From the IMG/VR virus record IMGVR_UViG_2974557979_000001: 64,000 nt of DNA; one strand, written 5' to 3'. Shown one piece after another: positions 4,273 through 45,913 of the stretch. The DNA comes from a virus. Its lineage: Duplodnaviria > Heunggongvirae > Uroviricota > Caudoviricetes > Straboviridae. A program made the position numbers and the translations under genes. The notes beneath the pieces were generated by a model. That model saw only the letters and a list, made by a program, of their open reading frames with translations, made no database searches and had not been told where the DNA came from. Position 1 is the stretch's first letter. The number at the start of each line of letters is the position of its first letter.

Positions 4273-4307
4273 TCAAATGGCTATCTTCGGATAGCCTTAT
4301 TTTTGGG

Positions 4308-4880
4308 GTGTCTATGCGCTTTTTAAAGTATGCAAGTTGGATCGTACTCGTCCCTCTTGACATTATTACTGGAGTATTAGCAATTCTGTTTGCCCCGTTT
4401 GTTGTACCGTTCTACAACGAGAAAACAGGGCATCTTCCTAAAGGCTTCCGGTGGATGGAAACCTTCGATAACCCTATTGATGGTGATGGTGGACATATCC
4501 GCCGTTGGGCGTCTATACGCTATCATCTGGGGGGTTTTGGGGTATACATGCAGCGTGTTGGCTGGTTGTGGAGAAACAAGGCTTATAACTTCGCATATCA
4601 CGTTTTAGGACGTGAAGCGACAAGCAAATTCAACTGGAAAGGCAACCCAAAAACAGAAGGTGGGCCAAACCCCGTAAATCATGGATATCTGCTCATGTGG
4701 AATGAATCAGCATGGGGGTTGTATGTCTATAAACCGTGGCTACGGATCCACAAGGTGCAATTCTGTTTGCGCGTTTATGCTGGATGGAAGCTGAAACAAG
4801 AAGTTAGCGACCCTGTTAACCTGGATCGCGCAATGCTGGCGTTTCATTTCAATCCATTCAGGTATTATGTAATCAAGTAA
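4308..4880 (+). CDS. hypothetical membrane protein
   Basis: N-terminal hydrophobic segment [25 protein letters not shown]. Confidence 0.5.
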
Positions 4881-4890
4881 AGGTAATACA

Positions 4891-5253
4891 ATGAAAGCAT
4901 TTCAAATTTTAGAAGGTTTGCATACGGGTACAATCTATCTGGAAGAAGGTAACGACGTTCGGATCGTAGTATCAAAAACATTAACTATGGATTCTGTGAT
5001 CGGTAAAGCTCGCGTTACTCCGTTTGCAAAGCGAGAGATCGAGATCGAATATCAGCCAACTGTTAAAGTGGAAGGTGGACAACATCTAAACGTTAACGTG
5101 TTGCGCCGCGAAACTCTCCTGGATGCTGTTGAACATCCTGAAAAATATCCGCAGTTAACGATCCGTGTTTCTGGTTATGCAGTGCGTTTTAACTCACTGA
5201 CCCCTGAACAGCAACGCGACGTTATCGCCCGAACCTTTACAGAGAGTCTATAA
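4891..5253 (+). CDS. grcA: autonomous glycyl radical cofactor (GrcA/YfiD-like)
   Basis: C-terminus [61 protein letters not shown] matches the E. coli GrcA glycine-radical domain almost exactly; T4 is known to carry a YfiD homolog. Confidence 0.85.
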
Positions 5254-5522
5254 TGGCAATTGATGATATCAAGGGTTATAAACCCCATACTGATAAAAAA
5301 GTAGAAACGGTAAACCGTATCAAAGATGCTGAAAATGCATTAGGTGCAATCCTGGAAGATATCGAACAGCGACTATCAAATTCAGATATTGATTCACTGA
5401 TAGAGGAAGAATTAGATGAGGTGCTTGAACGTATCCATCAAATTCAACTAGCGAAAGACCGACTGAAAGAAGCCTCTATGTGGGCGTGTCGTGCGGTGTT
5501 TCAGCCTGACGAAAAGTATTAA
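5253..5522 (+). CDS. hypothetical protein
   Basis: ORF overlapping the upstream stop (ATGA). Confidence 0.45.
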   Translation: MAIDDIKGYKPHTDKKVETVNRIKDAENALGAILEDIEQRLSNSDIDSLIEEELDEVLERIHQIQLAKDRLKEASMWACRAVFQPDEKY

Positions 5523-5527
5523 AAATC

Positions 5528-5556
5528 AAGCCGTTGCCGAAAGGTAGCGGCTTTTT
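5528..5556 (+). terminator. rho-independent terminator
   Basis: AAGCCG...CGGCTT stem followed by a T-run. Confidence 0.6.
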
Positions 5557-5577
5557 TCGTTTTTACATAAAAAGTTG

Positions 5578-5606
5578 TTGACTCCCTTCGCACATTCCCT
5601 TATAGT
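5578..5606 (+). promoter_or_regulatory. sigma70-type early promoter
   Basis: TTGACT, 17 bp spacer, TATAGT. Confidence 0.6.
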
Positions 5607-5647
5607 TAATCCCGTAGACAAGAAAACACTTTTATGAGGATGACATT

Positions 5648-5941
5648 ATGAAACGCTCTTACAACATGAATGAACTGGTTTTCTTCAAAACTCGTCGTGA
5701 AGCACGTGCTTACGTTCTGGCGGCTGGTAAAAATACTTCTGCTGCTATCGATATGGGTACTGATAAAGCTGTTGGTGCTCGTTGGGCCGCTGTTATCGTT
5801 ATCGCTGCTCCGGTTACTCCGGTTAAAACTCTGGTACTTGGTGCGCGTCACGCCGAAACTCTTAACACCGCTGCAAGCGGTAGGGGCCACGAAGTTAAAG
5901 TGTTCAAGAAGCGTTCTTATCTTTCATGTGCAAGGGGTTAA
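5648..5941 (+). CDS. hypothetical small basic Ala-rich protein, probably highly expressed
   Basis: RBS GAGGA; codon usage dominated by GCT/GGT/CGT/ACT/CTG/GTT, as in highly expressed enterobacterial genes; a strong promoter lies immediately upstream. Confidence 0.55.
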   Translation: MKRSYNMNELVFFKTRREARAYVLAAGKNTSAAIDMGTDKAVGARWAAVIVIAAPVTPVKTLVLGARHAETLNTAASGRGHEVKVFKKRSYLSCARG

Positions 5942-6183
5942 CTATGGCACGATTCATATATAAAGTGGAATACGAAAATACTGAGTTATCTGATACCTTT
6001 TTGAAGATGATTCGTGATCACGGGCAACGTCTGGAAAGAGTAACGATTGATACTGCTTTTGATTGTCCTGTTGGGTTGGTTCTGACATTATCTTGCAGCC
6101 CCGCAAAAGAATCAGCCCGTGTAGAAATGTTACATAAACTAAATGCATTTTATGAAGGTGGTAGTGTATGGCGAGTATTGTAA
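5926..6183 (+). CDS. hypothetical protein
   Basis: ORF overlapping the upstream stop. Confidence 0.4.
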   Translation: MCKGLTMARFIYKVEYENTELSDTFLKMIRDHGQRLERVTIDTAFDCPVGLVLTLSCSPAKESARVEMLHKLNAFYEGGSVWRVL

Positions 6184-6405
6184 AATTTTTCACCGACTCA
6201 GTGAAAGAAATTAAAAGCGCTCTGGAACAATGGAACACTCGCTGTGATGTATCCATTAAATCAGAGTACGAAACAACTTATGATCGTTATGATCCGGCCC
6301 GTGGTTTGCACAATAACCCCCATGAGGTGGAAGTGTGATTGATATCGAAACAAATAACGTGATTCTTGTCATAGTATCTTTTATGTTGGGATACTGGGCC
6401 GCATC

Positions 6406-6558
6406 ATGAAATACTACGGATTCAAAACGAGTCATTTTGGTAAAGCGTATCGCACAGAAAACATCGATCGCAAACGTCCGTACTATGATTCGTTAGTACG
6501 AGCGGGACGTAAACGCGCTCGCCAGGAAGGGAAGAAAGAGGGTGAAGATCGTGGATAA
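6406..6558 (+). CDS. small basic hypothetical protein (50 aa)
   Basis: ATG ORF under the track cutoff; Arg/Lys-rich. Confidence 0.3.
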   Translation: MKYYGFKTSHFGKAYRTENIDRKRPYYDSLVRAGRKRARQEGKKEGEDRG

Positions 6559-6641
6559 CTGGAAAACATGGATATCAATTATCGTTGGTGTTATCATCGG
6601 ACGCGGTTTGTATGATTTAATCTTTTCAATAGGGGTTAACT

Positions 6642-7082
6642 ATGGACATTGGTTCGGGTAGTCAGTACCCATCATGCGCGTTAAGCAACTTCGCTCCGCA
6701 TCCGTTTACGTTTGACGGGGTAGAATGTGCATCAATGGAGGGCTTTTTGCAAAGCCTGAAATTTAGCAACCCAGATATGCAAGCCCATGTATGTACTCTG
6801 GTAGGCAAGGCCGCAAAGTTCAAAGGCAAAAAGAAAAAATGGTGGACTAACCAGACCTTATACTGGAAAGGTATCCCTATTCATCGTTCCTCTGAGGCGT
6901 ATCAAATCCTGATTGAAAACGCATATAATGCGTTATTCCTTAATGAAGGGTTTCGCCGTGCGCTGGCAGCAACCGGAAAAAGTACCTTGACACATTCAAT
7001 GGGAAAGAATAAAATAAATGAAACTGTACTGACTGAAAGAGAGTTTGTACGCAACTTAACCCGATTGAGAGATCTGTTATGA
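6642..7082 (+). CDS. NADAR (YbiA-like) domain protein, candidate ADP-ribose N-glycosidase
   Basis: LSNFAPHPFTFDGVECASMEGFLQSLKF matches the NADAR/DUF1768 N-terminal signature (SNF...F..DG....ScEhYFQAQKF). Confidence 0.72.
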   Translation: MDIGSGSQYPSCALSNFAPHPFTFDGVECASMEGFLQSLKFSNPDMQAHVCTLVGKAAKFKGKKKKWWTNQTLYWKGIPIHRSSEAYQILIENAYNALFLNEGFRRALAATGKSTLTHSMGKNKINETVLTEREFVRNLTRLRDLL

Positions 7083-7342
7083 GTGAAAAAGAAAGAGTAG
7101 AATGCGTGTTTCTGTTCAAAGGCGCGATTAATCCATTAGCGTTACTGTATGCGCAACATGCATTACGTTCAACGTTGATTCAGAGTGTTATCTATAAAGC
7201 AGGTGTGTATTATGTTACCATCGGCGCAAATAACATGGTTGTTATTGAATCCTACGTTAAGGAATGTGCATTAAACGGCGTTGTCTTTGATAAAGTCGAT
7301 TTTGATGCTGGGGTAGATGCTGTTTATATGTATAAGGGTTGA
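7079..7342 (+). CDS. hypothetical protein
   Basis: ORF overlapping the upstream stop. Confidence 0.4.
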   Translation: MSEKERVECVFLFKGAINPLALLYAQHALRSTLIQSVIYKAGVYYVTIGANNMVVIESYVKECALNGVVFDKVDFDAGVDAVYMYKG

Positions 7343-7343
7343 T

Positions 7344-7565
7344 ATGAGTTACGTAGTTTATTTTGATTGTTCGGATCTCGATCCGTTCGTTCTTCAACAG
7401 GCAAAGAAATATCATCAGGATGTCGTTGGCATTGGTGTAACAAATGATGATATGTTGTGCATCGAATTTGAATATTATCGGACATTTGAGCGTGATTATT
7501 TCCTGGGTGAATTGAACGCATTCAAAAGTACCCTTTTCTTTGATCGTTATGAGGTTATATCTTGA
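7344..7565 (+). CDS. hypothetical protein
   Basis: Internal Met chosen (MSYVVYFD). Confidence 0.4.
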   Translation: MSYVVYFDCSDLDPFVLQQAKKYHQDVVGIGVTNDDMLCIEFEYYRTFERDYFLGELNAFKSTLFFDRYEVIS

Positions 7566-8176
7566 AACCTGTTATTCTTACCGATATTGACGGGATCGCC
7601 GTAAAATGGCAAAGCGGCCTCCCGTTCTTTTTGTCTAAGCACAACATGCCTACTGATATTGCATTAGAAATGGTTACAGATGAAAAATTTCGTGATATGA
7701 CCGAAATCTTCGGATGTGATCAGCAGTTGGCTAAAATCCTTATGGAAGAATACAATAACAGTTCTTTCATTCGTTATCTGAATGCGTATGATGATGCATT
7801 GATTGTGATCAACCGTCTGAAAACGCAGTATGATTTCGTTGCCGTTACCGCTCTGGGAACAACACCAACGGCAAGCCTTAACCGAATTGCTAACCTGAAT
7901 ACTCTTTTCCCGTCTGCGTTTAAAGAGGTGATGGTCGTGGGCCACGGTGAAACAAAAACTCATCGTTACCTGGAAGCAAAAGCAAAGTATGGTAATCGTC
8001 TGGTTTGCTTTGTTGATGATCTCGCGATAAACTTAAACGAATGTCATAACGTCATTAGTCAATTGCCGTTATTCCATATGTTACGTGGTGAACGTGAAGA
8101 AACAAATGCACCTCACCAGTTAGTAAAATCGTGGTTTGAAATTGAAGAGAAACTAAATGATCTTGTCAATCCTTAA
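7562..8176 (+). CDS. HAD-like hydrolase (putative)
   Basis: N-terminal ILTDIDGIAV resembles HAD motif I (DxDx[TV]); TTG start overlapping the upstream stop. Confidence 0.45.
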   Translation: MKPVILTDIDGIAVKWQSGLPFFLSKHNMPTDIALEMVTDEKFRDMTEIFGCDQQLAKILMEEYNNSSFIRYLNAYDDALIVINRLKTQYDFVAVTALGTTPTASLNRIANLNTLFPSAFKEVMVVGHGETKTHRYLEAKAKYGNRLVCFVDDLAINLNECHNVISQLPLFHMLRGEREETNAPHQLVKSWFEIEEKLNDLVNP

Positions 8177-19717: not shown

Positions 19718-19969
19718 TCATTTCATATCAAGTAGCCAGGAAGGGCTAGTTTCAAGCGAAATCGCAGTATATTCGTATTTTACAGTATAACCTTTGAAAC
19801 CGAAAGGAATGACTGCATTTTCATTGAGATATTTTACTTTATGCTTTGCTTCTTCTTCATTCAGAGCAGCACAGACTGTTGTTTGTTCAACGTTACCAGC
19901 AGGAGAAGTAAATTTTTCAATGATAATGTATACGCAGTTCATCCTATTGCCCTCTTTCCATTTTTTCAA
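19718..19969 (-). CDS. hypothetical protein
   Basis: ORF. Confidence 0.4.
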   Translation of the reverse strand: MKKWKEGNRMNCVYIIIEKFTSPAGNVEQTTVCAALNEEEAKHKVKYLNENAVIPFGFKGYTVKYEYTAISLETSPSWLLDMK

Positions 19970-20228
19970 GTTTCAGTGTATCCACTTGTAGTTGAAGTTT
20001 AAGAATACAACCTTTCGATATGTTATACAAGTAGTCACTAACGATTTTTGACTTTACCTGATCGTAATCAGAAGATAACGTAATCCAATCATACATAGTT
20101 TGGTATGATGGAAGATACGTACATTGTTCTTCTTTTGATAACGCTTTAAATGATTGGTAATCGGTTGGAGGTTCCGAAGCAATTGCGGTTGTGGTCATAA
20201 GACTAAGTGCAAGTAGTAGATATTTCAT
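19944..20228 (-). CDS. secreted/periplasmic small protein
   Basis: Start set to MKYLLLALSLMTTTAIA (signal peptide) with RBS GAGGAA; the longer track ORF includes translated leader. Confidence 0.5.
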   Translation of the reverse strand: MKYLLLALSLMTTTAIASEPPTDYQSFKALSKEEQCTYLPSYQTMYDWITLSSDYDQVKSKIVSDYLYNISKGCILKLQLQVDTLKLEKMERGQ

Positions 20229-20299
20229 AATGTATTCCTCATTGTTTTCGATAGAACCAATATAGCAAAAAGCCCCGACCGAAGTCAAGGGCTTTTTCA
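20229..20299 (-). promoter_or_regulatory. PeSL-like cassette (minus strand)
   Basis: Minus strand reads AAAAAGCCCTTGACTTCGGTCGGGGCTTTTTGCTATATTGGTTCTATCGAAAACAATGAGG; the same hairpin recurs at 37270. Confidence 0.5.
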
Positions 20300-20584
20300 T
20301 CAATGCAAGAAAGATTTCACGTACTGTTCGATCTTTTCACGACATGTATCAACTGAGGTACTTTCCGCAATTACGGCATGACATAACGCCTCGCCGCCGA
20401 CCCAGAAACTCATCATGTACTGAATATCACGACCTTCCATTTCTTTTTGATGCGCTTTGATTCGATCGAAAGCGTTTTCGATTGTTTCAGTAGCAGTAAG
20501 CATTTCGGATTCCCCGTCAACCTCCGCCAGTTCCCCATCGATCATTTCGCTTTCGACTTCTTCCCAGTATACTATCGTTATCAT
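20300..20584 (-). CDS. hypothetical acidic protein
   Basis: ORF. Confidence 0.45.
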   Translation of the reverse strand: MITIVYWEEVESEMIDGELAEVDGESEMLTATETIENAFDRIKAHQKEMEGRDIQYMMSFWVGGEALCHAVIAESTSVDTCREKIEQYVKSFLH

Positions 20585-20599
20585 GCATTACCCCAGTGG

Positions 20600-21070
20600 T
20601 TAACCGTCGTAATCCCCGCCACAATTCACATCACCTTCAATGAACAGTTCGCGGTTATCACGTAATAAATTATACTTTCTTTCGAGTTCAGGCCCGAACG
20701 CGTCGGCGTCTTCATACCAGCTATAATTGTATCTTCCGCATTCATCATCATATTCTGGTTCATCGCCGCGTTCATTGAAGTGAACAATTTTGATATCGTC
20801 CATCCCCAGTTCTTTCAACTTATCCCAGATATACGAAATCTCAACGCTATGGGAACCGAACGCTTCCAGTGAGATCGTACCGTTGCTATCGACTTGAGGA
20901 ATACCCCACTTCGAACGAGTATCATCGGTGATCATATCTATTAATGACTCGATATTATTCTCACCGTAGATATCAGCAACTTCCTTTTCTTTACCAGGAC
21001 GAACAAGCCCGATCCCGATAATAAAGCTACTGCTTGAGCTATTGCTCACAAACCCAGAACGAATTTTCAT
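20600..21070 (-). CDS. hypothetical protein sharing the N-terminal leader MKIRSGFVSNSSSSSFI (paralog A)
   Basis: The first 17 aa are identical to the ORF at 24455..24970 and the rest is unrelated; acidic C-terminus. Confidence 0.55.
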   Translation of the reverse strand: MKIRSGFVSNSSSSSFIIGIGLVRPGKEKEVADIYGENNIESLIDMITDDTRSKWGIPQVDSNGTISLEAFGSHSVEISYIWDKLKELGMDDIKIVHFNERGDEPEYDDECGRYNYSWYEDADAFGPELERKYNLLRDNRELFIEGDVNCGGDYDG

Positions 21071-21221
21071 CGCATCACCATATTACCAATCATGAATAGA
21101 GGGATTAGCGCAAAGACGATACCCCATAGAATGACCTTATCTTCACGACGGTCACACCCATGATAGATAACACCTCCAGCGAAAATCAATACAACAACTG
21201 AAACGAACGCGAATAAAGAAA

Positions 21222-21872
21222 TCATTTGCGGGTATCCATTCTCATAGAAACTTCTTTCAGGATCTTATTCAGATCGTGAAGCGCATCTTTTACGTTACCT
21301 TCGTTATAGGTAAGCATATCCTGGTACAGCCCTTTCAAACAACGATTGATAACATATGCTTTTTCAGAAGGTAACATTGTTCCAGAACGATTATAATCTC
21401 TGAAAATGTCCATCATCGTGCCGTTGTTGCCAGGTAATGACGGGTTGAAGTTAACCATACCAGACATCAAACTATCAACATACACAACGGTTGTGTTATC
21501 AGAACGATACGCGCCACCAACTTTAAACCAGTTGCTGAACACATACGGAGATTCCCGCACTTCGCTCAAATCGGTTCCGATTTCATCGATGTTTACACGA
21601 ATGTTGTTAAAATACACCGATTCATCAATAGAACCAGGACGCCATAAGATAGCACCGTTGTTATTTTTGAATCCGACTACATCAACCTGCCAGCCGTTAT
21701 CTGTTAACCGGACATCATCAACGACGATGAAATCAGGTAGCTGTGAATGAAAGCCGATGTTTTCAGGACGGGAATTACGAAACCCATCACGATTGGAGAA
21801 ATAAAGGATGTCGCCTTGATTCAGTTTGCATATATTCATAAGATTTTTAAAGTCCAATTCAAGTAATTCCAC
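21222..21872 (-). CDS. hypothetical protein (216 aa)
   Basis: ORF immediately downstream of the vWA gene on the same strand. Confidence 0.5.
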   Translation of the reverse strand: MELLELDFKNLMNICKLNQGDILYFSNRDGFRNSRPENIGFHSQLPDFIVVDDVRLTDNGWQVDVVGFKNNNGAILWRPGSIDESVYFNNIRVNIDEIGTDLSEVRESPYVFSNWFKVGGAYRSDNTTVVYVDSLMSGMVNFNPSLPGNNGTMMDIFRDYNRSGTMLPSEKAYVINRCLKGLYQDMLTYNEGNVKDALHDLNKILKEVSMRMDTRK

Positions 21873-21910
21873 AAGTCACCTCAAAGCCCCCTTTCGGGGG
21901 CGAGATCTCA

Positions 21911-24127
21911 TTAGAGTTTAACTTCTTTTTCTTCCAGAACGATTGTGCAATCAAATTTCACATCTTTCCAGAATTCCGCTGCAACGATATCTGTTGCGGT
22001 AACGCTTACGCTGGTTTCTTCAAAATCCAGATCCGCAAACCATGCGTGTCCGACGACAATACCGTACATTACACGACTCAGGCGATTATTAAGGGCGCGA
22101 ACCTCTTTAATAGTTTCCTTTGTCTGCTTATCAAGATACTCGATCAGGTCATTCTTGTCAAGCGCTTCGATCTCTTTAGATACAGTATCATAAGCCCACA
22201 GAATGATCAGGTCGCCATTGTTGAGTTTCTTCTTACCTTCGGCGCGTTTTGCAACGGTAGCAGCAACAGCCGGAAGTGATGAAACGCCTTTGATTTTCAC
22301 GTTCAGTTCTTTCGACATGTAAACATCAGTCGATTCTGTGCGCTCAACCTTCGGAGAAAAGCCGTAATCACGGATCCCTTGCTCAGACAACCATTCACCA
22401 GCCGCCTCACCAAAGCGCTGTTTAAGCCCTTCTGCGTTGCGTAAACCAATCGCGTTATCACGGAAGAACTTCATTACCTTCTGACGGCCTTTCAGGATTT
22501 CCAGACGGACGTTATCAGCAACAAATTCCTTACCAGAAATACCGCGAGTCATCGAACGGTTAACCAGAGGCAGAGAGGTAAAGTCAACCAGTACAGACAT
22601 ACGGTCTTCACCAATTTTAGCCAGCGGTTTGATAGTCAGACCAGAAGCACGTAAGTTTTTCAGAGTCGGGATATCGGTTTCCAGCGGAAGTACCTTAACG
22701 TTAACGATACCATCTTTAACAATGGTAAAGTTACGCACTTGTTTGGTTTCTACTTTTTCCGGCAATCCAAACTCTTTTTGTTTGCTTTCCGGAATGGTTA
22801 CGTAACCTTGTAGATCCGTATTGATAGAAATGTTCGGACGGGAACTGTTACCCACCAGGTGTTTCACTGCAACTTTCGTCGTGGTTTGGGTAAATTCCGG
22901 TTTCCATACTTCATGCGCTACCAGTTGCGCCGCCAGTGCTTTACGTTCTTCCGGAGTAGAAGCGTTTGCAATCTGTTCTGACAGTTTATCCAGTGTATCA
23001 TCATCTTTCTGGACAGTCTGACGGCCTGTACGATTGTACGCCCAGTGTTCAGAAGACAGGTCGATCACTGTGTCGGTTTCTGCCAGCAGTTCGAGAGCAT
23101 CAACCAGAGTAAACGCGTTTTCATCAGGAACCATGTTGTAATCAACACCATCCATCAGACGTTTAGCCGGATCAACAACCGCTTCGGAGATCATATCTTT
23201 AGCGTTGGAATAATCCTGTTTGGTAAAGCAGTTATCGTATGCTTTAATCAGACGCACATCACCCAGCTTTTTCAGAACTTTCCATGCCAGATCTGGATTC
23301 ATGGTATGAAGCGCATGATACAGAACCACATACAGAACCTGTTCACCTTCTGCTGTTGCCGGATCGAAGCCGTCAACGTCATTGATCGCGTTTTCACCCA
23401 GCGCCCAAATGTTTTTGATATGTTCCGGAACCAGAACAACACCATTTGCAGCATTCAGGACATACACACGGCCTTCATCCAGGTAGATCGCATGAGTTGC
23501 ATCGCCAACTTTGACTTCAACACGTGCGGAGGTTTGCGCGGTAATGATTTCATCAAATGCAGGTACATACGCATCAAACCCTTCAACGAATTTGTGTAAT
23601 GCGTTGGTTGCTTCCGCCATTTTTTCCAGCAGAGGACGGTTTACATAATAACCATATTCCAGGAAAGCAATGTTGTTAAACGTCAACGGCAGAGTAGAAC
23701 ACGCTTTCAGGATGTCATCAGTACGCCAGCAGTTATCATAACCATCAGTCAGGAAGATCAGACTGTTCAGATTGCCATTATCCGCTTGCAGATCGGTAGC
23801 GACTTCAACCGCCAGTTGCAGAGGTTCAACGAAGCCAGTACATCCGGTCGGACGCAGATAACGATCGATAGCATCATTGATTTTGCTCAGGTCGGATACA
23901 GAGCTAACCTTTTCGCCCACGAATACAGAACCGAACTGACCACGGCTGGAGAAATACAGAATAGATACGGTATCATCCTGCTTAACCAGCGTTGCCAGGT
24001 TGTTTTTCAGGTGCTGACGAATGCGCGGGAGTTCGTTATACATCGATCCGGATACGTCACAAACAAAAACGTGGTTAGTCGGGGTTGGTTTGGCTACGGC
24101 GTTTTTGAATTCAATGTTAGTGATCAT
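21911..24127 (-). CDS. von Willebrand factor A (vWA) domain protein, 738 aa
   Basis: N-terminal MIDAS-like DVSGSM ... FLTDGYDN pattern typical of vWA domains; long C-terminal region with no recognisable motifs. Confidence 0.65.
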   Translation of the reverse strand: MITNIEFKNAVAKPTPTNHVFVCDVSGSMYNELPRIRQHLKNNLATLVKQDDTVSILYFSSRGQFGSVFVGEKVSSVSDLSKINDAIDRYLRPTGCTGFVEPLQLAVEVATDLQADNGNLNSLIFLTDGYDNCWRTDDILKACSTLPLTFNNIAFLEYGYYVNRPLLEKMAEATNALHKFVEGFDAYVPAFDEIITAQTSARVEVKVGDATHAIYLDEGRVYVLNAANGVVLVPEHIKNIWALGENAINDVDGFDPATAEGEQVLYVVLYHALHTMNPDLAWKVLKKLGDVRLIKAYDNCFTKQDYSNAKDMISEAVVDPAKRLMDGVDYNMVPDENAFTLVDALELLAETDTVIDLSSEHWAYNRTGRQTVQKDDDTLDKLSEQIANASTPEERKALAAQLVAHEVWKPEFTQTTTKVAVKHLVGNSSRPNISINTDLQGYVTIPESKQKEFGLPEKVETKQVRNFTIVKDGIVNVKVLPLETDIPTLKNLRASGLTIKPLAKIGEDRMSVLVDFTSLPLVNRSMTRGISGKEFVADNVRLEILKGRQKVMKFFRDNAIGLRNAEGLKQRFGEAAGEWLSEQGIRDYGFSPKVERTESTDVYMSKELNVKIKGVSSLPAVAATVAKRAEGKKKLNNGDLIILWAYDTVSKEIEALDKNDLIEYLDKQTKETIKEVRALNNRLSRVMYGIVVGHAWFADLDFEETSVSVTATDIVAAEFWKDVKFDCTIVLEEKEVKL

Positions 24128-24134
24128 AATTTTC

Positions 24135-24455
24135 TCATTTATAGGTAAATTTTATTAAAATTTCGTTTACTTTTTTGCTAATAGTATCTAATGCATCATC
24201 GCATCCAAACTTACTACTCAACAATGAAACAAAATCATCCATCGTTGTTGTTTGAGACTCGCCAACGTCAAAAGACAGAGCGTAGGCAACAGGATTTTTA
24301 ATCCTTACGATTTGAATAGTATACTCATTCAGATCGAACCGTTCAAGATATTTTCGCAAAGAAAATAAATCAATCGGTACTGGTAGAGTTTGACTAAACG
24401 TTATTTCTTCCCCCAGTTGATAGGGGGGCATTTTTACACAGATTTCGTATTCCAT
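24135..24455 (-). CDS. hypothetical protein
   Basis: ORF. Confidence 0.45.
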   Translation of the reverse strand: MEYEICVKMPPYQLGEEITFSQTLPVPIDLFSLRKYLERFDLNEYTIQIVRIKNPVAYALSFDVGESQTTTMDDFVSLLSSKFGCDDALDTISKKVNEILIKFTYK

Positions 24456-24970
24456 CAGTGATGACTCTTCATAGTGTGTTCCAGATTACGGAAAATTTGC
24501 CCGTGTTCAAGCTGTGATTGGAATTCTCCGCATTCATCAGAGTAAGTAAATTCATAAATGAATACACCGTTCTGATTGCCAAATTTAGCGTTGTACTCTT
24601 CATACAACCACATCTTGATCAGAGCGTCTTTCTCTTCTGTTTCCAGATCATACCAGTCACGCCCATCATAAGCAAGCGCAATTTGAGGATTAGACCGATA
24701 TCGAGTTTCTGCGCTATCTTCGGTTTCCCATTCATAACGCTTATCATCATAGTATGATTCGAAACCATCACCCATATGACCACCCAGGTCGCGGTGTACT
24801 TGCTGTACAACTTCTTCCGCTGTCGGGCAAGTCATCCAGCTATAACCACAGTTAGGAACACAATCACCCATCATTTCGCGGAGATTGTTGATATCAGTCG
24901 GATCCTTCGGGAACCGTACAATAAAGCTACTTGATGAACTATTGCTCACAAAACCAGAACGGATTTTCAT
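24455..24970 (-). CDS. hypothetical protein sharing the N-terminal leader MKIRSGFVSNSSSSSFI (paralog B)
   Basis: N-terminal 17 aa identical to 20600..21070; about 50 nt conserved at DNA level with synonymous differences. Confidence 0.55.
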   Translation of the reverse strand: MKIRSGFVSNSSSSSFIVRFPKDPTDINNLREMMGDCVPNCGYSWMTCPTAEEVVQQVHRDLGGHMGDGFESYYDDKRYEWETEDSAETRYRSNPQIALAYDGRDWYDLETEEKDALIKMWLYEEYNAKFGNQNGVFIYEFTYSDECGEFQSQLEHGQIFRNLEHTMKSHH

Positions 24971-25209
24971 TTGATTTCCTCAAATTCAAAAGCGGTGAAA
25001 TGTTTTCTTTCGTCATACCCAACAGTACAACGATGCGTTTGCTTTCCGGTAAACCCGTCAAACACAGTTACACAATAGTAATGCAACGACGGAAGCGGTG
25101 TATGTTTAATGTATTTGATCGCGACGTTCAGGTCAACAGTAGAACATACACAATCAGACGTTTGCTCAAAACGGTCATCAAAAATCAACTCAATGCTATA
25201 GATGTTCAT
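24967..25209 (-). CDS. hypothetical protein
   Basis: ORF. Confidence 0.4.
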   Translation of the reverse strand: MNIYSIELIFDDRFEQTSDCVCSTVDLNVAIKYIKHTPLPSLHYYCVTVFDGFTGKQTHRCTVGYDERKHFTAFEFEEIK

Positions 25210-25489
25210 CTTTCACTTCCTTCATGTTTTTCATAACCTCTTCAAAAGTTACGGGGATTTCGTTGTACTGTAGTGATTCATCATCCCATACATCGCGATG
25301 CCCGAATGTTGAACTTTTTGCAATAATTTTTTCATTTTCCCATACATCAATAGTAACATGATCACCAAGATAAGGGAAATTAGGAACTTTGTTCAGCGCA
25401 TCAACGCAGTTTTGCAATGATTCAGAAACATGGGCAATTTCAGTGAATTCATAATCAGCACTATAAGAAGCTACGTAAATCATCACCAC
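25196..25489 (-). CDS. hypothetical protein
   Basis: ORF. Confidence 0.4.
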   Translation of the reverse strand: MVMIYVASYSADYEFTEIAHVSESLQNCVDALNKVPNFPYLGDHVTIDVWENEKIIAKSSTFGHRDVWDDESLQYNEIPVTFEEVMKNMKEVKDEHL

Positions 25490-25689
25490 CCCCTAACGAT
25501 GCTAACCAGCAGTAAACCCAGGATCCAGAACACAGCAACCGCACAAATACGGGCCATTACTACATTTCCGCGACTAGTCCACTCCGCACTAAGGAACAAG
25601 AGAACAAACGTTAACGCGTATAAAACCATTTCAATAACTTCGGTAATCATATAAACCTCACGAAAAAGCCCCTTTCGGGGCTTTATTAA

Positions 25690-26014: not shown

Positions 26015-26938
26015 TTATTCTTTAGCCTGTGCAAGCGCTTTTTTGATTTGTTTTGCGATTGCTTCGATCACCGGAACAGATACAGAGTTACCCGCTTGTT
26101 TGTACGCCTGTGTTTTGCTCTTATGCATCTTGAATGAATCCGGAAATCCTTGCAACCGGAAACACTCGCGAGGTGATAACATTCGAGGGTTCTTACCTTC
26201 CTGTAATACCAGACATTGAACACCATCCTTATAGTATTGGGCTGTTATCGTCCCAGTACACACAGAATCAACTGTAACGGCCTGATAGCCAAACCCCTTG
26301 CCGTTTGCCTTGTTTCGCTCTTTACGCTCTCTAAAGCCCTTCCAGGCACGATCTGATATGGTGTATTGATCATTATCCGGTTCGAGAATGTCACCTACCC
26401 TTGTTGGGGTACGTGGAGGAACAGGAAAACTAAAGAATACCGGATCGCGAAAGCAGACAATAAACACACGCTCTCTTCGTTGAGGCAATCCAAAATCTTT
26501 TGTATTCATTACCTGATAATGGATATCGTACCCTTCGTCCTGTAACAGCCTGTAGATGGTTTTAAACGTGTTTCCCTTGTCATGTGTTAATAGCTGGGGA
26601 ACATTCTCAAAGAACAGCACAGAGGGCTTTTTAGCCCGTATAATGCGGAGTATTTCAAAGATGATAGTACCGCGAGGATCTAACATGCCCTGTTTTAACC
26701 CTGCTTTACTGAACGCCTGACAAGGAAACCCCGCCAACAGGATATCGTGATCAGGTACGTCGTTTTCATCAATGGCGAATATATCACCCTGAATATTTTC
26801 ATCACCCCAGTTATCAGCATATGTTTGTTGTGCATGTTTATCGATTTCAGACGTTAAAAGGCATTCGACCCCGCCGAATGCCTTATCGAAACCGAGCCTC
26901 ACGCCACCAACACCAGCGCAAAGGTCAATTATTTTCAT
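26015..26938 (-). CDS. DNA (cytosine-5)-methyltransferase
   Basis: C5-MTase motifs I DLCAGVGG, IV FPCQAFS, VI ENV, VIII QRRERVF, X AGNSVSVPV. Confidence 0.9.
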   Translation of the reverse strand: MKIIDLCAGVGGVRLGFDKAFGGVECLLTSEIDKHAQQTYADNWGDENIQGDIFAIDENDVPDHDILLAGFPCQAFSKAGLKQGMLDPRGTIIFEILRIIRAKKPSVLFFENVPQLLTHDKGNTFKTIYRLLQDEGYDIHYQVMNTKDFGLPQRRERVFIVCFRDPVFFSFPVPPRTPTRVGDILEPDNDQYTISDRAWKGFRERKERNKANGKGFGYQAVTVDSVCTGTITAQYYKDGVQCLVLQEGKNPRMLSPRECFRLQGFPDSFKMHKSKTQAYKQAGNSVSVPVIEAIAKQIKKALAQAKE

Positions 26939-27201: not shown

Positions 27202-27437
27202 TCCGTTTCAATTCCGTGTTTGTATGCGTCAACGCCCAGAGGGGTGATCACTAAACACATATCAGTATTTTTCGTTGGTGAACTAAACGCCATAGATGCG
27301 TAGCCTTTTTGAATCAGGGCATCACGCCCTGATTTACTGGGTACATCGTTGAAATCTAAATCCAACATTTTCGACGAGTATCCGTAAAGTTTACACAGAA
27401 CATCAATTTCAGCGCCGGACAATTTCGGATATGTCAT
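27192..27437 (-). CDS. hypothetical protein
   Basis: ORF. Confidence 0.45.
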   Translation of the reverse strand: MTYPKLSGAEIDVLCKLYGYSSKMLDLDFNDVPSKSGRDALIQKGYASMAFSSPTKNTDMCLVITPLGVDAYKHGIETEWR

Positions 27438-28441
27438 TTGTAGTACCTCACAACATGTTCAGAATACACACGTTCAATGAAATCATTCCAGAAATCGCGA
27501 TCAACTTCTTTCGGATAACCAGATACAGCCGCCAGCTTTTCAACTTCACACATCGTTGATTCTAGCGCCTCTTGTACGGTTGCGAAAGGAACACCGCCAG
27601 CTTTAACCATTTTCAAAAATGCACTATCCGGAAGAGGATATACAATATCACCTTCTTTGAAAATCTGGATCAATTGCATACCACCGCGCAACGCATGAGA
27701 AAGAGCTTTCCAGTCGATCCCGTTGTTGGCTTCTGCTTGCCGTGCTCGTTCCCCGTATTCATCCCAGAGTTTATACACGGATTTTTTCATTTCCGCTACG
27801 GTGATCGTAGACTGGAATTTACGCCCCAGAACTTCATAAAATTCCTGACAACCTGATTTCAGTGTTTTGTCTGTAACGAATCGACAAAACTCGTTGGTCG
27901 GGAATCGGTTAGAAACCTCACCAACTTTGATGCGCTTGCCGTAGTTAGATTCATCTACGTTACCCAGCAATGATGTACCATACCAGTAATCGGGAATCAT
28001 TTGTAACACATCAACAACTTCACGCAGTGCCGCCAGGCGAGAACCTTTAACGCCATACTTCGCCGCTTGCTTACGAACATAACCAAACAGGCCAGTTAGT
28101 TCCGTAGTGTAGAAGCGTGAACGGTTAGCGCGGAGATATTGCCAGATATCAGAGTTAGCGATCAGTTTGCTATCATCTGCATGAAGCATATCAATCGCCA
28201 CGGTGTCACCATCACATGCGAGGCTAATAAACTTTTGCAGACTGTAAATCTGACGATCTACGTCATTAACACCGTTCTTTGAGTTTTTATCGCCAGTTGA
28301 TGTATCAATAGACTTCTTCGCAGTACCTAACAGGATTTCGCGAGGATGAGGGAGATAGATCCCTTTGTAGTCTTTATCGCTTGTTGGTGTTTCCAGTCCG
28401 TACAGGTGAGAACCAAATACGGTTTCCATAATCATTTTCAT
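27434..28441 (-). CDS. Pol-beta superfamily nucleotidyltransferase (unknown specificity)
   Basis: N-terminal FGSHLYGLETPTSDKDYKGIY = GS-x9-DxD NTase signature; later VAIDMLH provides a third acidic residue; C-terminal helical domain. Confidence 0.6.
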   Translation of the reverse strand: MKMIMETVFGSHLYGLETPTSDKDYKGIYLPHPREILLGTAKKSIDTSTGDKNSKNGVNDVDRQIYSLQKFISLACDGDTVAIDMLHADDSKLIANSDIWQYLRANRSRFYTTELTGLFGYVRKQAAKYGVKGSRLAALREVVDVLQMIPDYWYGTSLLGNVDESNYGKRIKVGEVSNRFPTNEFCRFVTDKTLKSGCQEFYEVLGRKFQSTITVAEMKKSVYKLWDEYGERARQAEANNGIDWKALSHALRGGMQLIQIFKEGDIVYPLPDSAFLKMVKAGGVPFATVQEALESTMCEVEKLAAVSGYPKEVDRDFWNDFIERVYSEHVVRYYK

Positions 28442-44386: not shown

Positions 44387-44654
44387 GTCTAGATGTCAGT
44401 TTAGCGATAAAGTCGAAAATGTGTTGTGAACCATCTTCAACATAATGACGGTATGCAAGCAAAGTTGATACGTGACACATATCGACCGATTCAACTTTGA
44501 TGCTTGATGCGATCATTGTATCATCATTTCCATATCCGTCAATATCACGGAGTACCATTTCTTCAGTCGGGAAACGCTGAAGGAGTGACGCTTCCCGATC
44601 TGATACCAGAGCAACTAAGCGATTATGTCGCGTGTTGTACGATAATATTTTCAT
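44352..44654 (-). CDS. hypothetical protein
   Basis: ORF. Confidence 0.4.
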   Translation of the reverse strand: MKILSYNTRHNRLVALVSDREASLLQRFPTEEMVLRDIDGYGNDDTMIASSIKVESVDMCHVSTLLAYRHYVEDGSQHIFDFIAKLTSRLDEEEYYDLFG

Positions 44655-45913
44655 TTCAATTCCACCGCGTAAACATCAGGTTCAGGGGCTTTGTGTACGC
44701 GCATATCTTTACCGCATACCGCATAAGCCGGACAGTTACGACAACCGTTATGATCCTTATTACCGATCAGTTCATTACGGAACTGTTTGGTTTTCGGATG
44801 TTCCCAGATATCTTTGATAAAGTCGCTGGCTTCCAGGACGTTAAGCCCTTCTGACCATCCACCCTCGACCCAACGTTCGGTAAAGGAACAGGGGAAGAAT
44901 TCACCCTTTTCATTGATGTACGAACTAAACATAGTAGCTTCGCAATCTTCCGCATACTGTTTGTACTGTTCAAAATTTTCATGTCCTTCCATAGCCTCTA
45001 CAAAGGCCGGAGCGGAACAGGAATCAAAACCGAACCCTACACCAGATTCAAGGCAATACTCTACCAGAGCTTTATACTGCTCGCGTGTAACGGTATCCCA
45101 GTTCTTCCCACGACCTTTTTGTTTCAGACCCAGGAATACGATCGCGTTAACTTGTTTCAAGCGCGGATCATTCTTTACAGCATCAACCACGTTAAACGCG
45201 TCATCATAGGTTTTAGAGCTAACCATGAAATGAAGGTTGATTTGCTGTTGTCCGGCTTCTGCAAGATTAGCCACTGAATTAAACGCTACATCGAATCCAG
45301 CATGTTTGTATACTGATACCGCAACAGCCCCAGCAACAGCCGCTAAACGCGCTGCAACGTCTTTTGATACATCAGCAATGGTAAGGTTTGGTACAATGCC
45401 TTTAGAACGCGCATAGGCCATCATATCAAACATATCAGGGTTTGTTTGTCCCTGTGCATCAGCACCGAGGGCGCATTGTGTTAACCAGGGCATTTTATCA
45501 ATGATAGATTTGAATGTATCAAGATCCATATTGAAGCCGTTAGGGTTATTAGACTTGTAGCAGAAACCGCAAAGTTTACCAGCAGGGCCATTGCATTTAG
45601 TTGTGATCTCGATATCGAGAATTTCGGGGAATGGGGCATAGGTAGGATCAGTTTCGAACGATATTCCCCAGCGAGCAAACTCACCAGTTTTAACGTTGAA
45701 ATTGTAGTTATACCACTTAGAGCGAGCGTAACGGATATCACCATCTTGATATATGAACAGGGTAGGAGCTTTCAGAACAGTTTGTGCGTTATTCATAATA
45801 TAATTCTCAAAATCTAACATGGGATTGGAAGACAGCGCGAGCGAGACTTTCATTATCAAACGGTATTGATTGGTGTTGTCCTTTGCTATCAATGTTAACG
45901 CGCCAAAATTCAC
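44651..45913 (-). CDS. putative radical-SAM-like Fe-S enzyme (atypical cysteine spacing) with Cys-rich C-terminal domain
   Basis: ILDIEITTKCNGPAGKLCGFCY resembles the radical SAM strand-loop motif but with CX8CX2C spacing; C-terminal DSCSAP...PCSF...NGCRNCPAYAVCG is SPASM/twitch-like; start uncertain. Confidence 0.45.
   Translation of the reverse strand: MNFGALTLIAKDNTNQYRLIMKVSLALSSNPMLDFENYIMNNAQTVLKAPTLFIYQDGDIRYARSKWYNYNFNVKTGEFARWGISFETDPTYAPFPEILDIEITTKCNGPAGKLCGFCYKSNNPNGFNMDLDTFKSIIDKMPWLTQCALGADAQGQTNPDMFDMMAYARSKGIVPNLTIADVSKDVAARLAAVAGAVAVSVYKHAGFDVAFNSVANLAEAGQQQINLHFMVSSKTYDDAFNVVDAVKNDPRLKQVNAIVFLGLKQKGRGKNWDTVTREQYKALVEYCLESGVGFGFDSCSAPAFVEAMEGHENFEQYKQYAEDCEATMFSSYINEKGEFFPCSFTERWVEGGWSEGLNVLEASDFIKDIWEHPKTKQFRNELIGNKDHNGCRNCPAYAVCGKDMRVHKAPEPDVYAVELK

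What the first reader, a model, noticed from the sequence alone, without database searches (positions are those of the whole stretch)
20600..24970. Cassette of a 738 aa vWA protein plus partners, bracketed by two unrelated proteins that share an identical 17 aa N-terminus
The minus-strand ORFs at 20600..21070 and 24455..24970 both begin MKIRSGFVSNSSSSSFI and then diverge completely. About 50 nt at their 5' ends are near-identical at DNA level, yet there are synonymous differences (AGCTCAAGC versus AGTTCATCA), so selection is acting on the peptide and not only on a recombination site. Between them lie a 738 aa von Willebrand A domain protein (MIDAS-like DVSGSM), a 216 aa ORF and a 106 aa ORF, none of which I can place in the T4 core. 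The shared leader looks like a targeting peptide of the kind T4 uses for polymorphic internal proteins (capsid targeting sequence removed by the prohead protease). Paralog B has an L-x-E (NLRE) about 30 aa in, which would fit gp21-type cleavage. Alternatively the two 5' ends are direct repeats left by cassette insertion or shuffling of the vWA module. A vWA protein with unknown partners in a T4-like accessory region is a candidate injected effector or anti-defence module.
Basis: partly seen in the sequence, partly recalled or inferred. Interest (0 to 1): 0.8.

Follow-up and report, generated by a model that had tools for sequence, protein, structure and literature searches.

The report
Phage protein tag paired with radical-SAM enzyme
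The identical 17-residue start of the two phage proteins is the hallmark of a very large, undescribed family of small viral proteins that almost always sit beside one radical-SAM/SPASM enzyme, so it is most likely the site where that enzyme recognises and chemically modifies them, and not a capsid-targeting peptide or a scar of the vWA cassette.

Summary
The window is Klebsiella phage Matisse (Slopekvirus). ORFs 20600-21070(-) and 24455-24970(-) both start MKIRSGFVSNSSSSSFI (17/17 aa, 45/51 nt, all six differences synonymous) and are otherwise unrelated.

The leader is not local. Type A alone has more than 1,000 clusters at 50% identity. Viral contigs carry 1-13 co-oriented ORFs that each begin MK.R.GFVSNSSSSSF and then diverge; no paper in the held library mentions the motif.

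These ORFs are tightly linked to one radical-SAM/SPASM enzyme family:
- 71 of 80 enzyme-centred viral loci have leader ORFs within 10 kb.
- All 294 such ORFs lie on the enzyme's strand.
- 21 of 27 leader-centred loci contain the enzyme.

Matisse encodes the enzyme in this window (44651-45796, -), 20 kb away. Among cultured phages the enzyme (173 records) and the leader proteins (174 and 175) occur in the same genera. The vWA protein (504 records) occurs widely without either.

Best reading (inferred, untested): the leader is the recognition and modification motif for the maturase. The capsid-targeting and cassette-repeat ideas are not supported. The vWA block is a lineage-specific neighbour. 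Cellular homologues lie in AVAST-like and SIR2-HerA defence neighbourhoods.

The parts
20600..21070 (-). Leader protein type A (CPT_Matisse113, 156 aa): N-terminal MKIRSGFVSNSSSSSFI plus an acidic alpha/beta domain ending ..CGGDYDG (family consensus YGAGRNG-COOH)
   Evidence: (phrog_132)
21020..21070 (-). 51-nt segment that encodes the 17-aa leader of A
24455..24970 (-). Leader protein type B (CPT_Matisse118, 171 aa): same leader, then FP.xP..EEL.EM and the C-terminal motif YSDxDG..LEHGxIFxNLxHxxxSHH-COOH
   Evidence: (phrog_7397)
24920..24970 (-). 51-nt segment that encodes the 17-aa leader of B
44651..45796 (-). Radical-SAM/SPASM enzyme (CPT_Matisse164, 381 aa; C68-x7-C76-x2-C79-YK; auxiliary-cluster Cys 260, 285, 303, 352, 355, 361). 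It is the gene that co-occurs with leader ORFs everywhere else. It lies outside the coordinates of the finding.
21911..24127 (-). 738-aa vWA protein (CPT_Matisse116): intact MIDAS, vWA plus beta-sandwich like ArnB/Sec24/ITIH, then about 450 aa with no assigned fold. A neighbour; not part of the general leader/rSAM system.
21222..21872 (-). 216-aa ORF (phrog_7309), found only in Slopekvirus/RB43-type relatives; no family or fold assignment
21067..21225 (-). 52-aa hydrophobic ORF (phrog_7160), found in only part of the lineage
24135..24455 (-). 106-aa ORF (phrog_7677), found only in Slopekvirus/RB43-type relatives

Best explanation
Matisse gp113 (A) and gp118 (B) are the two Slopekvirus members of a very large family of small acidic proteins, from phages and some cellular genomes, defined only by an invariant extreme N-terminus, M-K-x-R-x-G-F-V-S-N-S-S-S-S-S-F.

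Shown:
- The 16-mer is conserved at the peptide level across hundreds of otherwise unrelated protein bodies.
- Genes carrying it form co-oriented arrays of 1-13.
- They are genomically and phyletically coupled to a single radical-SAM/SPASM (twitch-like) enzyme family, whose Matisse member is gp164 at window 44651-45796(-).
- No third universal partner, such as a protease or transporter, exists.

Inferred: the 16-mer is the recognition element, and most probably also the modification site, of that maturase. The enzyme would bind the flexible N-terminal peptide and use a 5'-deoxyadenosyl radical to install a modification in or next to G6-F7-V8-S9-N10-S11-S12. Candidate chemistries are Ser oxidation as by anSME/BtrN, an aromatic-to-C-beta cyclophane on the F-V-S triplet as in triceptides, an ether or C-C cross-link, or epimerisation. 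The product would stay attached to a full-size folded protein and would not be released as a peptide.

The variable bodies (types A, B, a Zn-ribbon type and others) would be a diversifying set of effectors that need this common N-terminal modification. The vWA/216/106/52 block that separates A and B in Slopekvirus/RB43-type phages is a lineage-specific neighbour. It looks like an insertion into, or relocation of, a two-gene leader array, and it is not a component of the system.
For: Family size and signature:
- hmmsearch with a type-A profile finds 1024 clusters at E<=1e-3. All those listed are 130-175 aa, start MK.R.GFVSNSSSSSF and end GAGRNG.
- 489 IMG/VR stretches encode VSNSSSSSF.
- 354 unique leader ORFs were read in the viral and related loci; 95% have Met directly before the K, and conservation collapses after residue 18.

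Peptide-level selection: paralogues within one locus are 87% identical in protein and 71% in DNA over the leader, with 8172 synonymous vs 2546 non-synonymous codon differences and both Ser codon families in use.

Coupling to the enzyme:
- The only non-leader family shared by leader loci is the rSAM/SPASM protein, present in 21 of 27.
- Reciprocally, 71 of 80 rSAM-centred loci have at least one leader ORF within 10 kb, and 4 of the 9 exceptions are Slopekvirus/RB43-type, where the ORFs lie 20 kb away.
- 294 of 294 leader ORFs are on the rSAM strand, and 18 loci have one within 100 nt of the rSAM stop.
- 49 of 93 genome stretches of at most 8 kb also hold the enzyme; in four of the five bacterial operons read (L124, L154, L172, L186) the leader ORF's end overlaps the rSAM start by 4-20 nt, and in L180 the two genes abut.
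- Among cultured phages: rSAM 173 records, A 174, B 175, with the same genus list.
- Leader variant T9 is found only beside the divergent rSAM clade (21/48 vs 0/454).

Enzyme identity: Pfam SPASM and Radical_SAM; NCBIfam SPASM/twitch and peptide-maturase models; invariant CxnCxxCYK and auxiliary Cys.

Leader accessibility: in the AF2 model of A (pLDDT 88) residues 1-3 and 6-11 score below 50, while the strand at 13-23 is confident.

No other universal partner.
Against: - No modification has been observed. Everything rests on gene neighbourhood, phyletic pattern and family membership of the enzyme.
- In Matisse itself the enzyme is 20 kb from the leader genes.
- The enzyme has no recognisable RRE/PqqD-like domain. 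Its sequence matches to solved structures are weak (BtrN E=4e-6, SkfB E=2e-3).
- SPASM/twitch enzymes also act on non-peptide substrates (BtrN, MoaA, AhbD).
- Typical RiPP leaders are recognition-only and are cleaved; here no protease is linked.
- Residue-level co-variation of leader and enzyme clade could reflect shared descent.
- Six leader-centred loci show no enzyme within 10 kb. At least L016 has it elsewhere on the same contig (L058).
Confidence: 0.62

Rival explanations
1. The leader proteins are partners of the radical-SAM enzyme and not its substrates. The N-terminal peptide would dock them onto the enzyme, for example as specificity, carrier or activator subunits that each present a different third-party substrate, or as regulators. 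The chemistry would happen elsewhere.
For: The same co-occurrence data fit this reading. The leader is flexible in the monomer model. The bodies are diverse folded domains, as expected of adaptor sets. SPASM/twitch enzymes with non-peptide substrates exist (BtrN was the best PDB sequence hit).
Against: A pure docking peptide rarely needs 11 or more near-invariant residues, including five Ser and an Asn, over such phylogenetic breadth. Arrays of up to 13 partners for one enzyme are easier to explain as substrates. In the well-studied SPASM systems recalled from established knowledge (anSME, PqqE, MftC, AlbA, QhpD), a small co-encoded protein bearing a conserved motif is the substrate.
Confidence: 0.15
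2. The Ser-rich N-terminus is an intrinsic functional loop of the proteins themselves, for example a phosphate- or nucleotide-binding loop or an oligomerisation strand. It would work without modification, and the linkage to the enzyme would reflect a shared pathway only.
For: The position right at the N-terminus followed by a beta-strand recalls the hydroxyl-rich phosphate loops of flavodoxin-like folds (established knowledge, not tested here). The motif is invariant.
Against: The same loop heads bodies with no detectable homology or common fold. AF2 does not pack residues 1-11 against the domain. There is no Pfam, NCBIfam or fold match to any nucleotide-binding family.
Confidence: 0.1
3. One reading: the leader is a capsid-targeting sequence that sends polymorphic internal proteins into the prohead and is removed by the gp21-type prohead protease.
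For: There is a formal analogy with T4 IP genes: a conserved short N-terminus on hypervariable bodies arranged in arrays. B has L-R-E at residues 30-32, and about half of B-type sequences keep [LI]xE there.
Against: The leader occurs in bacterial chromosomal operons next to AVAST-like or SIR2-HerA genes, with no capsid gene in the stretches read. It tracks the rSAM enzyme and not T4-type head genes. A has no [LI]xE before residue 85, and cleavage about 30 aa in would remove a core strand. The sequence is unlike the T4 CTS (MKTYQEFIAE, from memory). The cassette lies on the minus strand among small ORFs and enzyme genes (methylase, nucleotidyltransferase), next to but transcribed opposite to the baseplate genes.
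Confidence: 0.04
4. The two 5' ends are direct repeats created by, or used for, insertion or shuffling of the vWA cassette. A functional variant of this idea is that the vWA protein works together with the two leader proteins in this lineage.
For: The order B-106-vWA-216-(52)-A is conserved in about 175 Slopekvirus/RB43-type genomes and in a relative whose paralogue A is 51% identical. In closer non-Slopekvirus relatives the B-type gene sits directly after the rSAM gene (L047), so the Matisse arrangement is derived. The vWA MIDAS is intact and needs a protein ligand.
Against: The repeat is only 45/51 identical, with a longest exact run of 14 nt and only synonymous differences. The motif pre-exists everywhere. 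vWA, 216-aa and 106-aa homologues are absent from the 27 other leader loci. vWA-bearing Ackermannviridae, Thanatos, Rhizobium and Bacillus phages lack leader genes and the enzyme.
Confidence: 0.07

Closest known systems
Radical-SAM/SPASM (and twitch) maturases with co-encoded peptide or protein substrates: anSME with sulfatases, QhpD with QhpC, PqqE with PqqA, MftC with MftA, sactipeptide/ranthipeptide/streptide/triceptide synthases
   Same: The enzyme has a radical-SAM Cys triad plus a Cys-rich SPASM/twitch C-terminal domain. Small genes with a conserved motif are co-oriented and adjacent, and in the cellular form they overlap or abut the enzyme gene. Enzyme clade and motif variant go together.
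   Different: The substrates are full-size folded proteins of 50-275 aa. The conserved element is at the extreme N-terminus and is itself the candidate modified site. There are up to 13 unrelated bodies per enzyme. There is no RRE domain, no leader peptidase and no exporter. The system is mainly viral. The enzyme falls below the curated cut-off of every NCBIfam maturase model. Many members have Cx7-13Cx2C in place of Cx3Cx2C.
T4 internal proteins (IPI, IPII, IPIII, Alt) with the capsid-targeting sequence
   Same: A short invariant N-terminus on hypervariable proteins, arranged in plastic arrays in large phages.
   Different: The sequence is different and there is no conserved gp21 site. The link is to an rSAM enzyme and not to head genes. 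The motif is also present in cellular operons. There is no evidence of packaging.
Three-residue cyclophane (triceptide) and FxS-type systems (3-CyFE/FxsB radical-SAM/SPASM enzymes acting on aromatic-X-X motifs)
   Same: The leader contains an invariant F7-V8-S9 triplet, which has the form of an aromatic-X-X site, and the enzyme is of SPASM type. This resemblance is recalled from the literature and was not tested.
   Different: There are no repeated motifs and no C-terminal FxSxx. The substrates are proteins. No model of these families scored above threshold.
ArnB / Sec23-Sec24 trunk / ITIH-type vWA proteins (comparison for the 738-aa protein only)
   Different: About 450 further residues have no assigned homologue. 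There is no FHA, kinase or MoxR partner nearby. It is a phage core-like gene in Ackermannviridae.
AVAST type 1 (Avs1a MBL hydrolase plus protease-STAND Avs1b); comparison for the cellular cousins only
   Same: In the bacterial loci the leader-protein/rSAM pair lies directly downstream of an MBL-fold Avs1a/LmuA-like gene and an 800-1000-aa protease-STAND gene.
   Different: Scores are below the curated cut-offs. Four extra genes are present (about 140 aa, leader protein, rSAM, about 320 aa). No functional data exist.

Membership tests
Radical-SAM/SPASM maturase plus cognate substrate system | Enzyme with a radical-SAM [4Fe-4S] Cys triad (canonically Cx3Cx2C) | tested here: met
   C68, C76 and C79 followed by YK are invariant in 19 homologues. 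The spacing is Cx3Cx2C in several members and Cx7 or longer in others; Matisse has Cx7Cx2C. Pfam Radical_SAM reaches E=3e-5 on L039, below the gathering score.
Radical-SAM/SPASM maturase plus cognate substrate system | C-terminal SPASM or twitch domain with auxiliary-cluster cysteines | tested here: met
   Pfam SPASM 27.9 bits against a cut-off of 21.5. NCBIfam TIGR04085 and N_Twi_rSAM hits. Conserved C260, C285, C303 and C355. The full 7-Cys SPASM pattern is not complete, so the domain may be twitch-like.
Radical-SAM/SPASM maturase plus cognate substrate system | Substrate gene(s) with a conserved motif, adjacent to and co-oriented with the enzyme | tested here: met
   71/80 and 21/27 loci; 294/294 ORFs co-oriented; the genes overlap by 4-20 nt or abut in the five bacterial operons read. 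In Matisse itself the genes are 20 kb apart.
Radical-SAM/SPASM maturase plus cognate substrate system | Enzyme-dependent covalent modification of the motif | not testable with these tools
   Needs co-expression or infection followed by MS.
Radical-SAM/SPASM maturase plus cognate substrate system | RiPP-type features: RRE domain, leader peptidase, release of a small peptide | tested here: not met
   No PqqD/RRE hit. No protease or transporter family recurs in 76 loci. The substrates are 50-275-aa proteins with confident folds. It therefore works like a protein-modifying maturase (anSME/QhpD style) and not like a classical RiPP pathway.
T4 capsid-targeting-sequence internal proteins | CTS-like N-terminus followed closely by a gp21 site ([LI]-x-E) | tested here: not met
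   A has its first [LI]xE at residue 85. B has LRE at 30-32, conserved in only about half of B-type sequences. The leader sequence is unlike the T4 CTS (from memory).
T4 capsid-targeting-sequence internal proteins | Restricted to phages with a T4-type prohead and protease; encoded with late or head genes | tested here: not met
   The motif is present in bacterial chromosomal operons and in very diverse contigs. In Matisse it lies on the minus strand among small ORFs and enzyme genes, next to but transcribed opposite to the baseplate genes.
T4 capsid-targeting-sequence internal proteins | Presence of the processed protein in virions | not testable with these tools
   No Slopekvirus virion proteome was found in the library.
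vWA (MIDAS) domain proteins (the 738-aa ORF) | Rossmann-like vWA fold with DxSxS...T...D MIDAS | tested here: met
vWA-MoxR / CoxE / cobaltochelatase-type vWA systems | Adjacent AAA+ MoxR-type ATPase partner | tested here: not met
   No such gene is seen next to the vWA gene in Matisse, CBA120 or Thanatos-2.
Head-tail adaptor (label of phrog_132 and of Pharokka annotations for paralog A) | Fold or sequence relation to known adaptor proteins and a position in the head-tail gene module | tested here: not met

The most novel reading that the evidence does not exclude
Large phages, and some AVAST-like or SIR2-HerA-associated cellular operons, encode a previously undescribed protein-tagging system. 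A dedicated radical-SAM/SPASM enzyme would install a radical-derived modification on an invariant 16-residue N-terminal tag. That tag is shared by a rapidly diversifying repertoire of up to 13 unrelated small acidic effector proteins per genome. This would be a viral post-translational 'licence' for host-takeover or anti-defence proteins, mirrored by a cellular defence version.
Probability: 0.45. Interest if true: 0.9.

Novelty: new variant of a known kind. Interest (0 to 1): 0.85.

Why it matters
If the inference holds, this is a new class of radical-SAM protein modification. It is found in viruses of very diverse hosts (contigs binned with Proteobacteria, Firmicutes, Patescibacteria, Asgard and DPANN archaea). 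It acts on whole proteins through a portable 16-residue tag and not on small peptides.

- It would give a function to a phage 'radical SAM protein' or 'Fe-S oxidoreductase' gene that is so far labelled only by its domains.
- It would explain more than 1,000 clusters of hypothetical proteins, some of them mislabelled 'head-tail adaptor'.
- It would supply a ready-made enzyme/tag pair for protein engineering.
- Its cellular homologues in AVAST-like and SIR2-HerA neighbourhoods would tie it to phage-host conflict.

It also corrects the reading of this locus: the vWA protein is an independent, widely conserved phage gene and is not the cargo of a leader-bracketed cassette.

Tried and rejected
- Pfam, NCBIfam and PADLOC on all cassette proteins gave only the vWA hit. 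Pfam on ten representatives of other leader sub-types gave nothing.
- The PHROG label 'head-tail adaptor' for A was rejected.
- PDB sequence searches: the vWA profile matched only vWA domains. The rSAM profile gave only weak hits to BtrN and SkfB.
- The sigma-70 promoter and terminator scan of 19-27.5 kb showed no enrichment over shuffles. The T4 late-promoter motif TATAAATA occurs once in the whole window, fewer than the 3.95 expected by chance, so it says nothing about timing.
- A glycyl-radical reading of 'R-x-G-F' was considered and dropped. The spacing differs from RVxG[FWY], and glycyl-radical activases lack SPASM domains (established knowledge).
- The 140-aa and 320-aa partner genes of the bacterial operon have no homologue in phage loci or in the window.
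- A weak match of window ORF 50515-51096 to a leader-protein body (E=4e-5) was set aside as probably spurious; from its sequence the ORF looks like a DUF262/ParB-type protein, which was not tested.
- Literature: no paper contains the motif. No description of a phage rSAM/SPASM system with tagged proteins was found. No Slopekvirus virion proteome was found.
- The attempt to find the one Vibrio phage that carries the enzyme did not list it.

Full report
IDENTITY OF THE WINDOW. Region 19900-25600 is 100% identical to Klebsiella phage Matisse (KT001918, Straboviridae, Slopekvirus); window coordinate + 46702 = record coordinate. The finding covers CPT_Matisse113-118, all annotated 'hypothetical protein'. 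They lie on the minus strand among small ORFs and enzyme genes, next to but transcribed opposite to the gp25/gp51/gp26-like baseplate genes.

OBSERVATION. The ORFs are as described.
- Paralog A (20600-21070, 156 aa) and paralog B (24455-24970, 171 aa) share MKIRSGFVSNSSSSSFI. BLASTP finds nothing else in common.
- Profiles of the two families align only over the first 33 columns (hhalign).
- The 51 coding nucleotides are 45/51 identical, all six differences are synonymous, and the longest exact run is 14 nt.
- The motif occurs twice in the window, not at all in Matisse 1-47000, and at two places per genome in nearly all of the Slopekvirus/RB43-type records listed.
- The 738-aa ORF is a true vWA protein: Pfam hits above cut-off and MIDAS residues D24, S26, S28, T97 and D128 conserved.

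THE LEADER IS A FAMILY SIGNATURE.
- Close homologues of A keep residues 1-17 invariant down to 33% overall identity.
- An HMMER search of 1.84 billion representatives with the A profile found 1024 clusters at E<=1e-3. Nearly all of the 150 listed are proteins of about 130-175 aa that start MK[IVT]R.GFVSNSSSSSF and end YGAGRNG.
- A 219.8-kb phage contig (L005) carries seven consecutive ORFs (91-143 aa) that all begin with the leader and then diverge.
- IMG/VR holds 489 stretches encoding VSNSSSSSF. In 27 non-Slopekvirus loci there are 1-10 leader ORFs per 20 kb.
- In all I read 354 unique leader ORFs, median 134 aa. 95% have Met directly before the K, and conservation collapses after residue 18.
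- After the leader is removed, the bodies fall into 103 clusters, 72 of them singletons. The recurrent types are:
  - type A: ..GIG..GAGRNG-COOH;
  - type B: FP.xP..EEL.EM ... YSDxDG..LEHGxIFxNLxHxRISHH-COOH, present in 30 loci;
  - a CxxCG zinc-ribbon type;
  - an 80-110-aa 'L[ST]xEQ' type;
  - an 'FCIYG' type ending W.E.G.Y.G.
- None of these types matches Pfam.
- The bodies are acidic: median pI 4.6, and 78% are below 5.

SELECTION ACTS ON THE PEPTIDE. Paralogues within one locus are 87% identical in protein but 71% in DNA over the leader. Codon differences are 8172 synonymous against 2546 non-synonymous. Every Ser position uses both TCN and AGY codons in comparable numbers.

COUPLING TO A RADICAL-SAM/SPASM ENZYME.
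- All-against-all clustering of the ORFs in the 27 leader loci gave one non-leader family present in most of them: a protein of about 350 aa. After removing two loci that joined only through inteins, it is in 21 of 27 loci.
- It carries a Pfam SPASM domain, and Radical_SAM in some members. NCBIfam hits are to SPASM, twitch and peptide-maturase models. The CxnCxxCYK triad and auxiliary cysteines are invariant.
- The window encodes a member: 44651-45796(-), CPT_Matisse164 'radical SAM protein' (E=1.5e-129).
- Reciprocal test: of 80 IMG/VR loci retrieved with the enzyme alignment, 71 have at least one leader ORF within 10 kb (up to 13 in L053). Four of the nine exceptions are Slopekvirus/RB43-type.
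- All 294 leader ORFs in the 76 other loci lie on the enzyme's strand. 61 loci have one downstream, 18 of them within 100 nt of the stop codon.
- No third family recurs. The next most frequent non-leader family, a family of about 343 aa that looks like an RNA ligase (not tested), is in 12 loci.
- Among 50,697 cultured phage records the enzyme is in 173, A in 174 and B in 175, with the same genus list.
- Leader variant Thr9 occurs only beside a divergent enzyme clade: 21/48 against 0/454.

THE vWA BLOCK.
- Full-length homologues of the 738-aa protein occur in 504 phage records: Slopekvirus/RB43-type, Ackermannviridae (e.g. CBA120 orf143), Shewanella Thanatos, Rhizobium P10VF-like and Bacillus phages.
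- CBA120 and Thanatos-2 have no leader ORF within 5 kb. Those lineages also lack the enzyme.
- Conversely, none of the 27 other leader loci has a vWA, 216-aa or 106-aa homologue.
- The order B-106-vWA-216-(52)-A is conserved only in Slopekvirus/RB43-type genomes and in one relative whose paralogue A is 51% identical (L007). In closer non-Slopekvirus relatives (L047) the B-type gene follows the enzyme directly. The Matisse arrangement is therefore derived.
- In Vi01-like phage Sajous1 the vWA homologue gave one spectrum in virion MS (PMC10892097). That argues against an abundant injected protein. Its function remains open.

CELLULAR COUSINS.
- A pattern scan of 185,579 species genomes found 93 stretches. 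Most are MAG contigs, some with arrays of up to 7. 49 also contain the enzyme within 8 kb or less.
- Isolates of Acetatifactor muris, Lachnobacterium bovis and Veillonella parvula, together with Sulfuricurvum and Terriglobales MAGs, share a compact operon:
  - an ORF of about 140 aa;
  - a 137-aa leader protein (MKIR.GFVTNSSSTSF ... IYFNGNIGGW);
  - the rSAM gene, which overlaps the leader ORF by 4-20 nt (it abuts it in L180);
  - an ORF of about 320 aa.
- Upstream, in at least 12 of 16 such loci, lies an 800-1000-aa gene with an Avs2-like STAND region (PADLOC 9e-16) and an N-terminal stretch that reads like a trypsin-type protease (from its sequence, not tested). In four of them it is preceded by an Avs1a/LmuA-like MBL hydrolase. 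In Sulfuricurvum the neighbours are SIR2 and HerA.
- The pair therefore also lives in defence-type neighbourhoods. This is guilt by association only.

MECHANISM.
- Shown: an invariant N-terminal peptide under purifying selection; arrays of unrelated bodies; strict neighbourhood, strand and phyletic coupling to one SPASM-type radical-SAM enzyme; no other partner.
- Inferred: the enzyme binds the exposed leader and modifies it, and the product stays on the protein. This parallels anSME on sulfatases or QhpD on QhpC (established knowledge) and differs from leader-cleaved RiPPs.
- The chemistry cannot be read from sequence. Candidates are Ser oxidation, an F7-to-S9 cyclophane, ether or C-C cross-links, and epimerisation.
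- I put about 0.9 on the coupling being functional and about 0.6 on the substrate model.

- CTS/gp21 idea: A lacks [LI]xE before residue 85. Cleavage about 30 residues in would remove a core strand. The motif exists outside T4-like phages and in cellular operons. No Slopekvirus virion proteome was found to settle the point directly.
- Cassette-repeat idea: contradicted by the synonymous differences, the 14-nt longest exact run and the ubiquity of the motif.

NOVELTY. The motif appears in no paper of the held library. No phage rSAM/SPASM-plus-tagged-protein system was found in searches. No Pfam, NCBIfam or PADLOC model covers the leader proteins. The enzyme class and the enzyme-plus-motif logic are known. 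Three things are new: the protein-sized polymorphic substrates, the N-terminal tag, and the viral arrays with defence-island cousins.

Noticed in passing
window 44651-45796 (-): Radical-SAM/SPASM gene (CPT_Matisse164) with a non-canonical Cx7Cx2C cluster motif. Several of its homologues keep Cx3Cx2C and others have still longer insertions.
   Followed up: yes
L124 (Acetatifactor muris NZ_JANJZD010000002) 1061-7997; also L180, L154, L172, L186: Conserved bacterial operon: MBL hydrolase (Avs1a/LmuA-like), protease-STAND (Avs2-like), an ORF of about 140 aa, a 137-aa leader protein, rSAM/SPASM, and an ORF of about 320 aa. In Sulfuricurvum it lies next to SIR2-HerA. It looks like an undescribed defence-island system.
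   Followed up: partly
L005 2971-4623 (+): A 550-aa protein with S-AdoMet lyase and DUF3293 domains lies two genes upstream of the SAM-dependent radical-SAM gene in a 219.8-kb phage contig. A phage that both destroys and uses SAM is an odd pairing.
   Followed up: no
P0246 and P0287: Two database proteins carry the leader twice, at residues 1-17 and again about 30 or 68 residues in. They may be gene fusions or assembly artefacts within arrays.
   Followed up: no
L031 1953-4034, L036 5848-8386, L177 3198-5013; KX431559: The rSAM gene is split into two pieces in several loci. In L037/L040, RecA and RNR genes carry inteins that linked them spuriously to the enzyme cluster. Mobile insertions seem common in this gene.
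   Followed up: partly
window 20600-21070 (-) in Roth22 and other Pharokka-annotated genomes: Paralog A is annotated 'head-tail adaptor' (through phrog_132) and the vWA protein 'minor tail protein'. Neither label has support from fold, family or gene position.
   Followed up: yes
window 21911-24127 (-): The first 285 or so residues of the vWA protein resemble the vWA plus beta-sandwich of archaeal ArnB, the Sec23/24 trunk and ITIH1. The protein is listed among the conserved genes of Enterobacteriaceae Ackermannviridae (PMC10892097).
   Followed up: partly
window 26015-26938 (-) and 27434-28441 (-): A C5-cytosine DNA methyltransferase, and a 335-aa ORF whose homologue in relative L007 has an RlaP-type (PF10127) domain, lie just upstream of the cassette. 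The same neighbours recur in L007.
   Followed up: no
window 50515-51096 (-): A 193-aa ORF that contains a DGKQR motif; from its sequence it looks like a DUF262/ParB-type nuclease domain (GmrSD N-terminal type), which was not tested. It surfaced through a weak, probably spurious, match to a leader-protein body.
   Followed up: partly
leader ORFs in L005, L016-L122: Leader-protein bodies are strongly acidic (median pI 4.6), while the tag itself is basic (K2, R4). Several unrelated sub-types also have conserved extreme C-termini (GAGRNG..GYNG..SHH..GGW). This raises the untested idea that the two termini interact or are cross-linked.
   Followed up: no
Genome-contig loci L128, L141, L155, L162, L164, L174, L195, L202, L203: Leader ORFs and the rSAM gene occur on contigs binned with Nanoarchaeota, Woesearchaeota, Promethearchaeota, Heimdallarchaeota, Bathyarchaeia and Thermoplasmata. 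This suggests either archaeal viruses that carry the system or mis-binned phage contigs.
   Followed up: no
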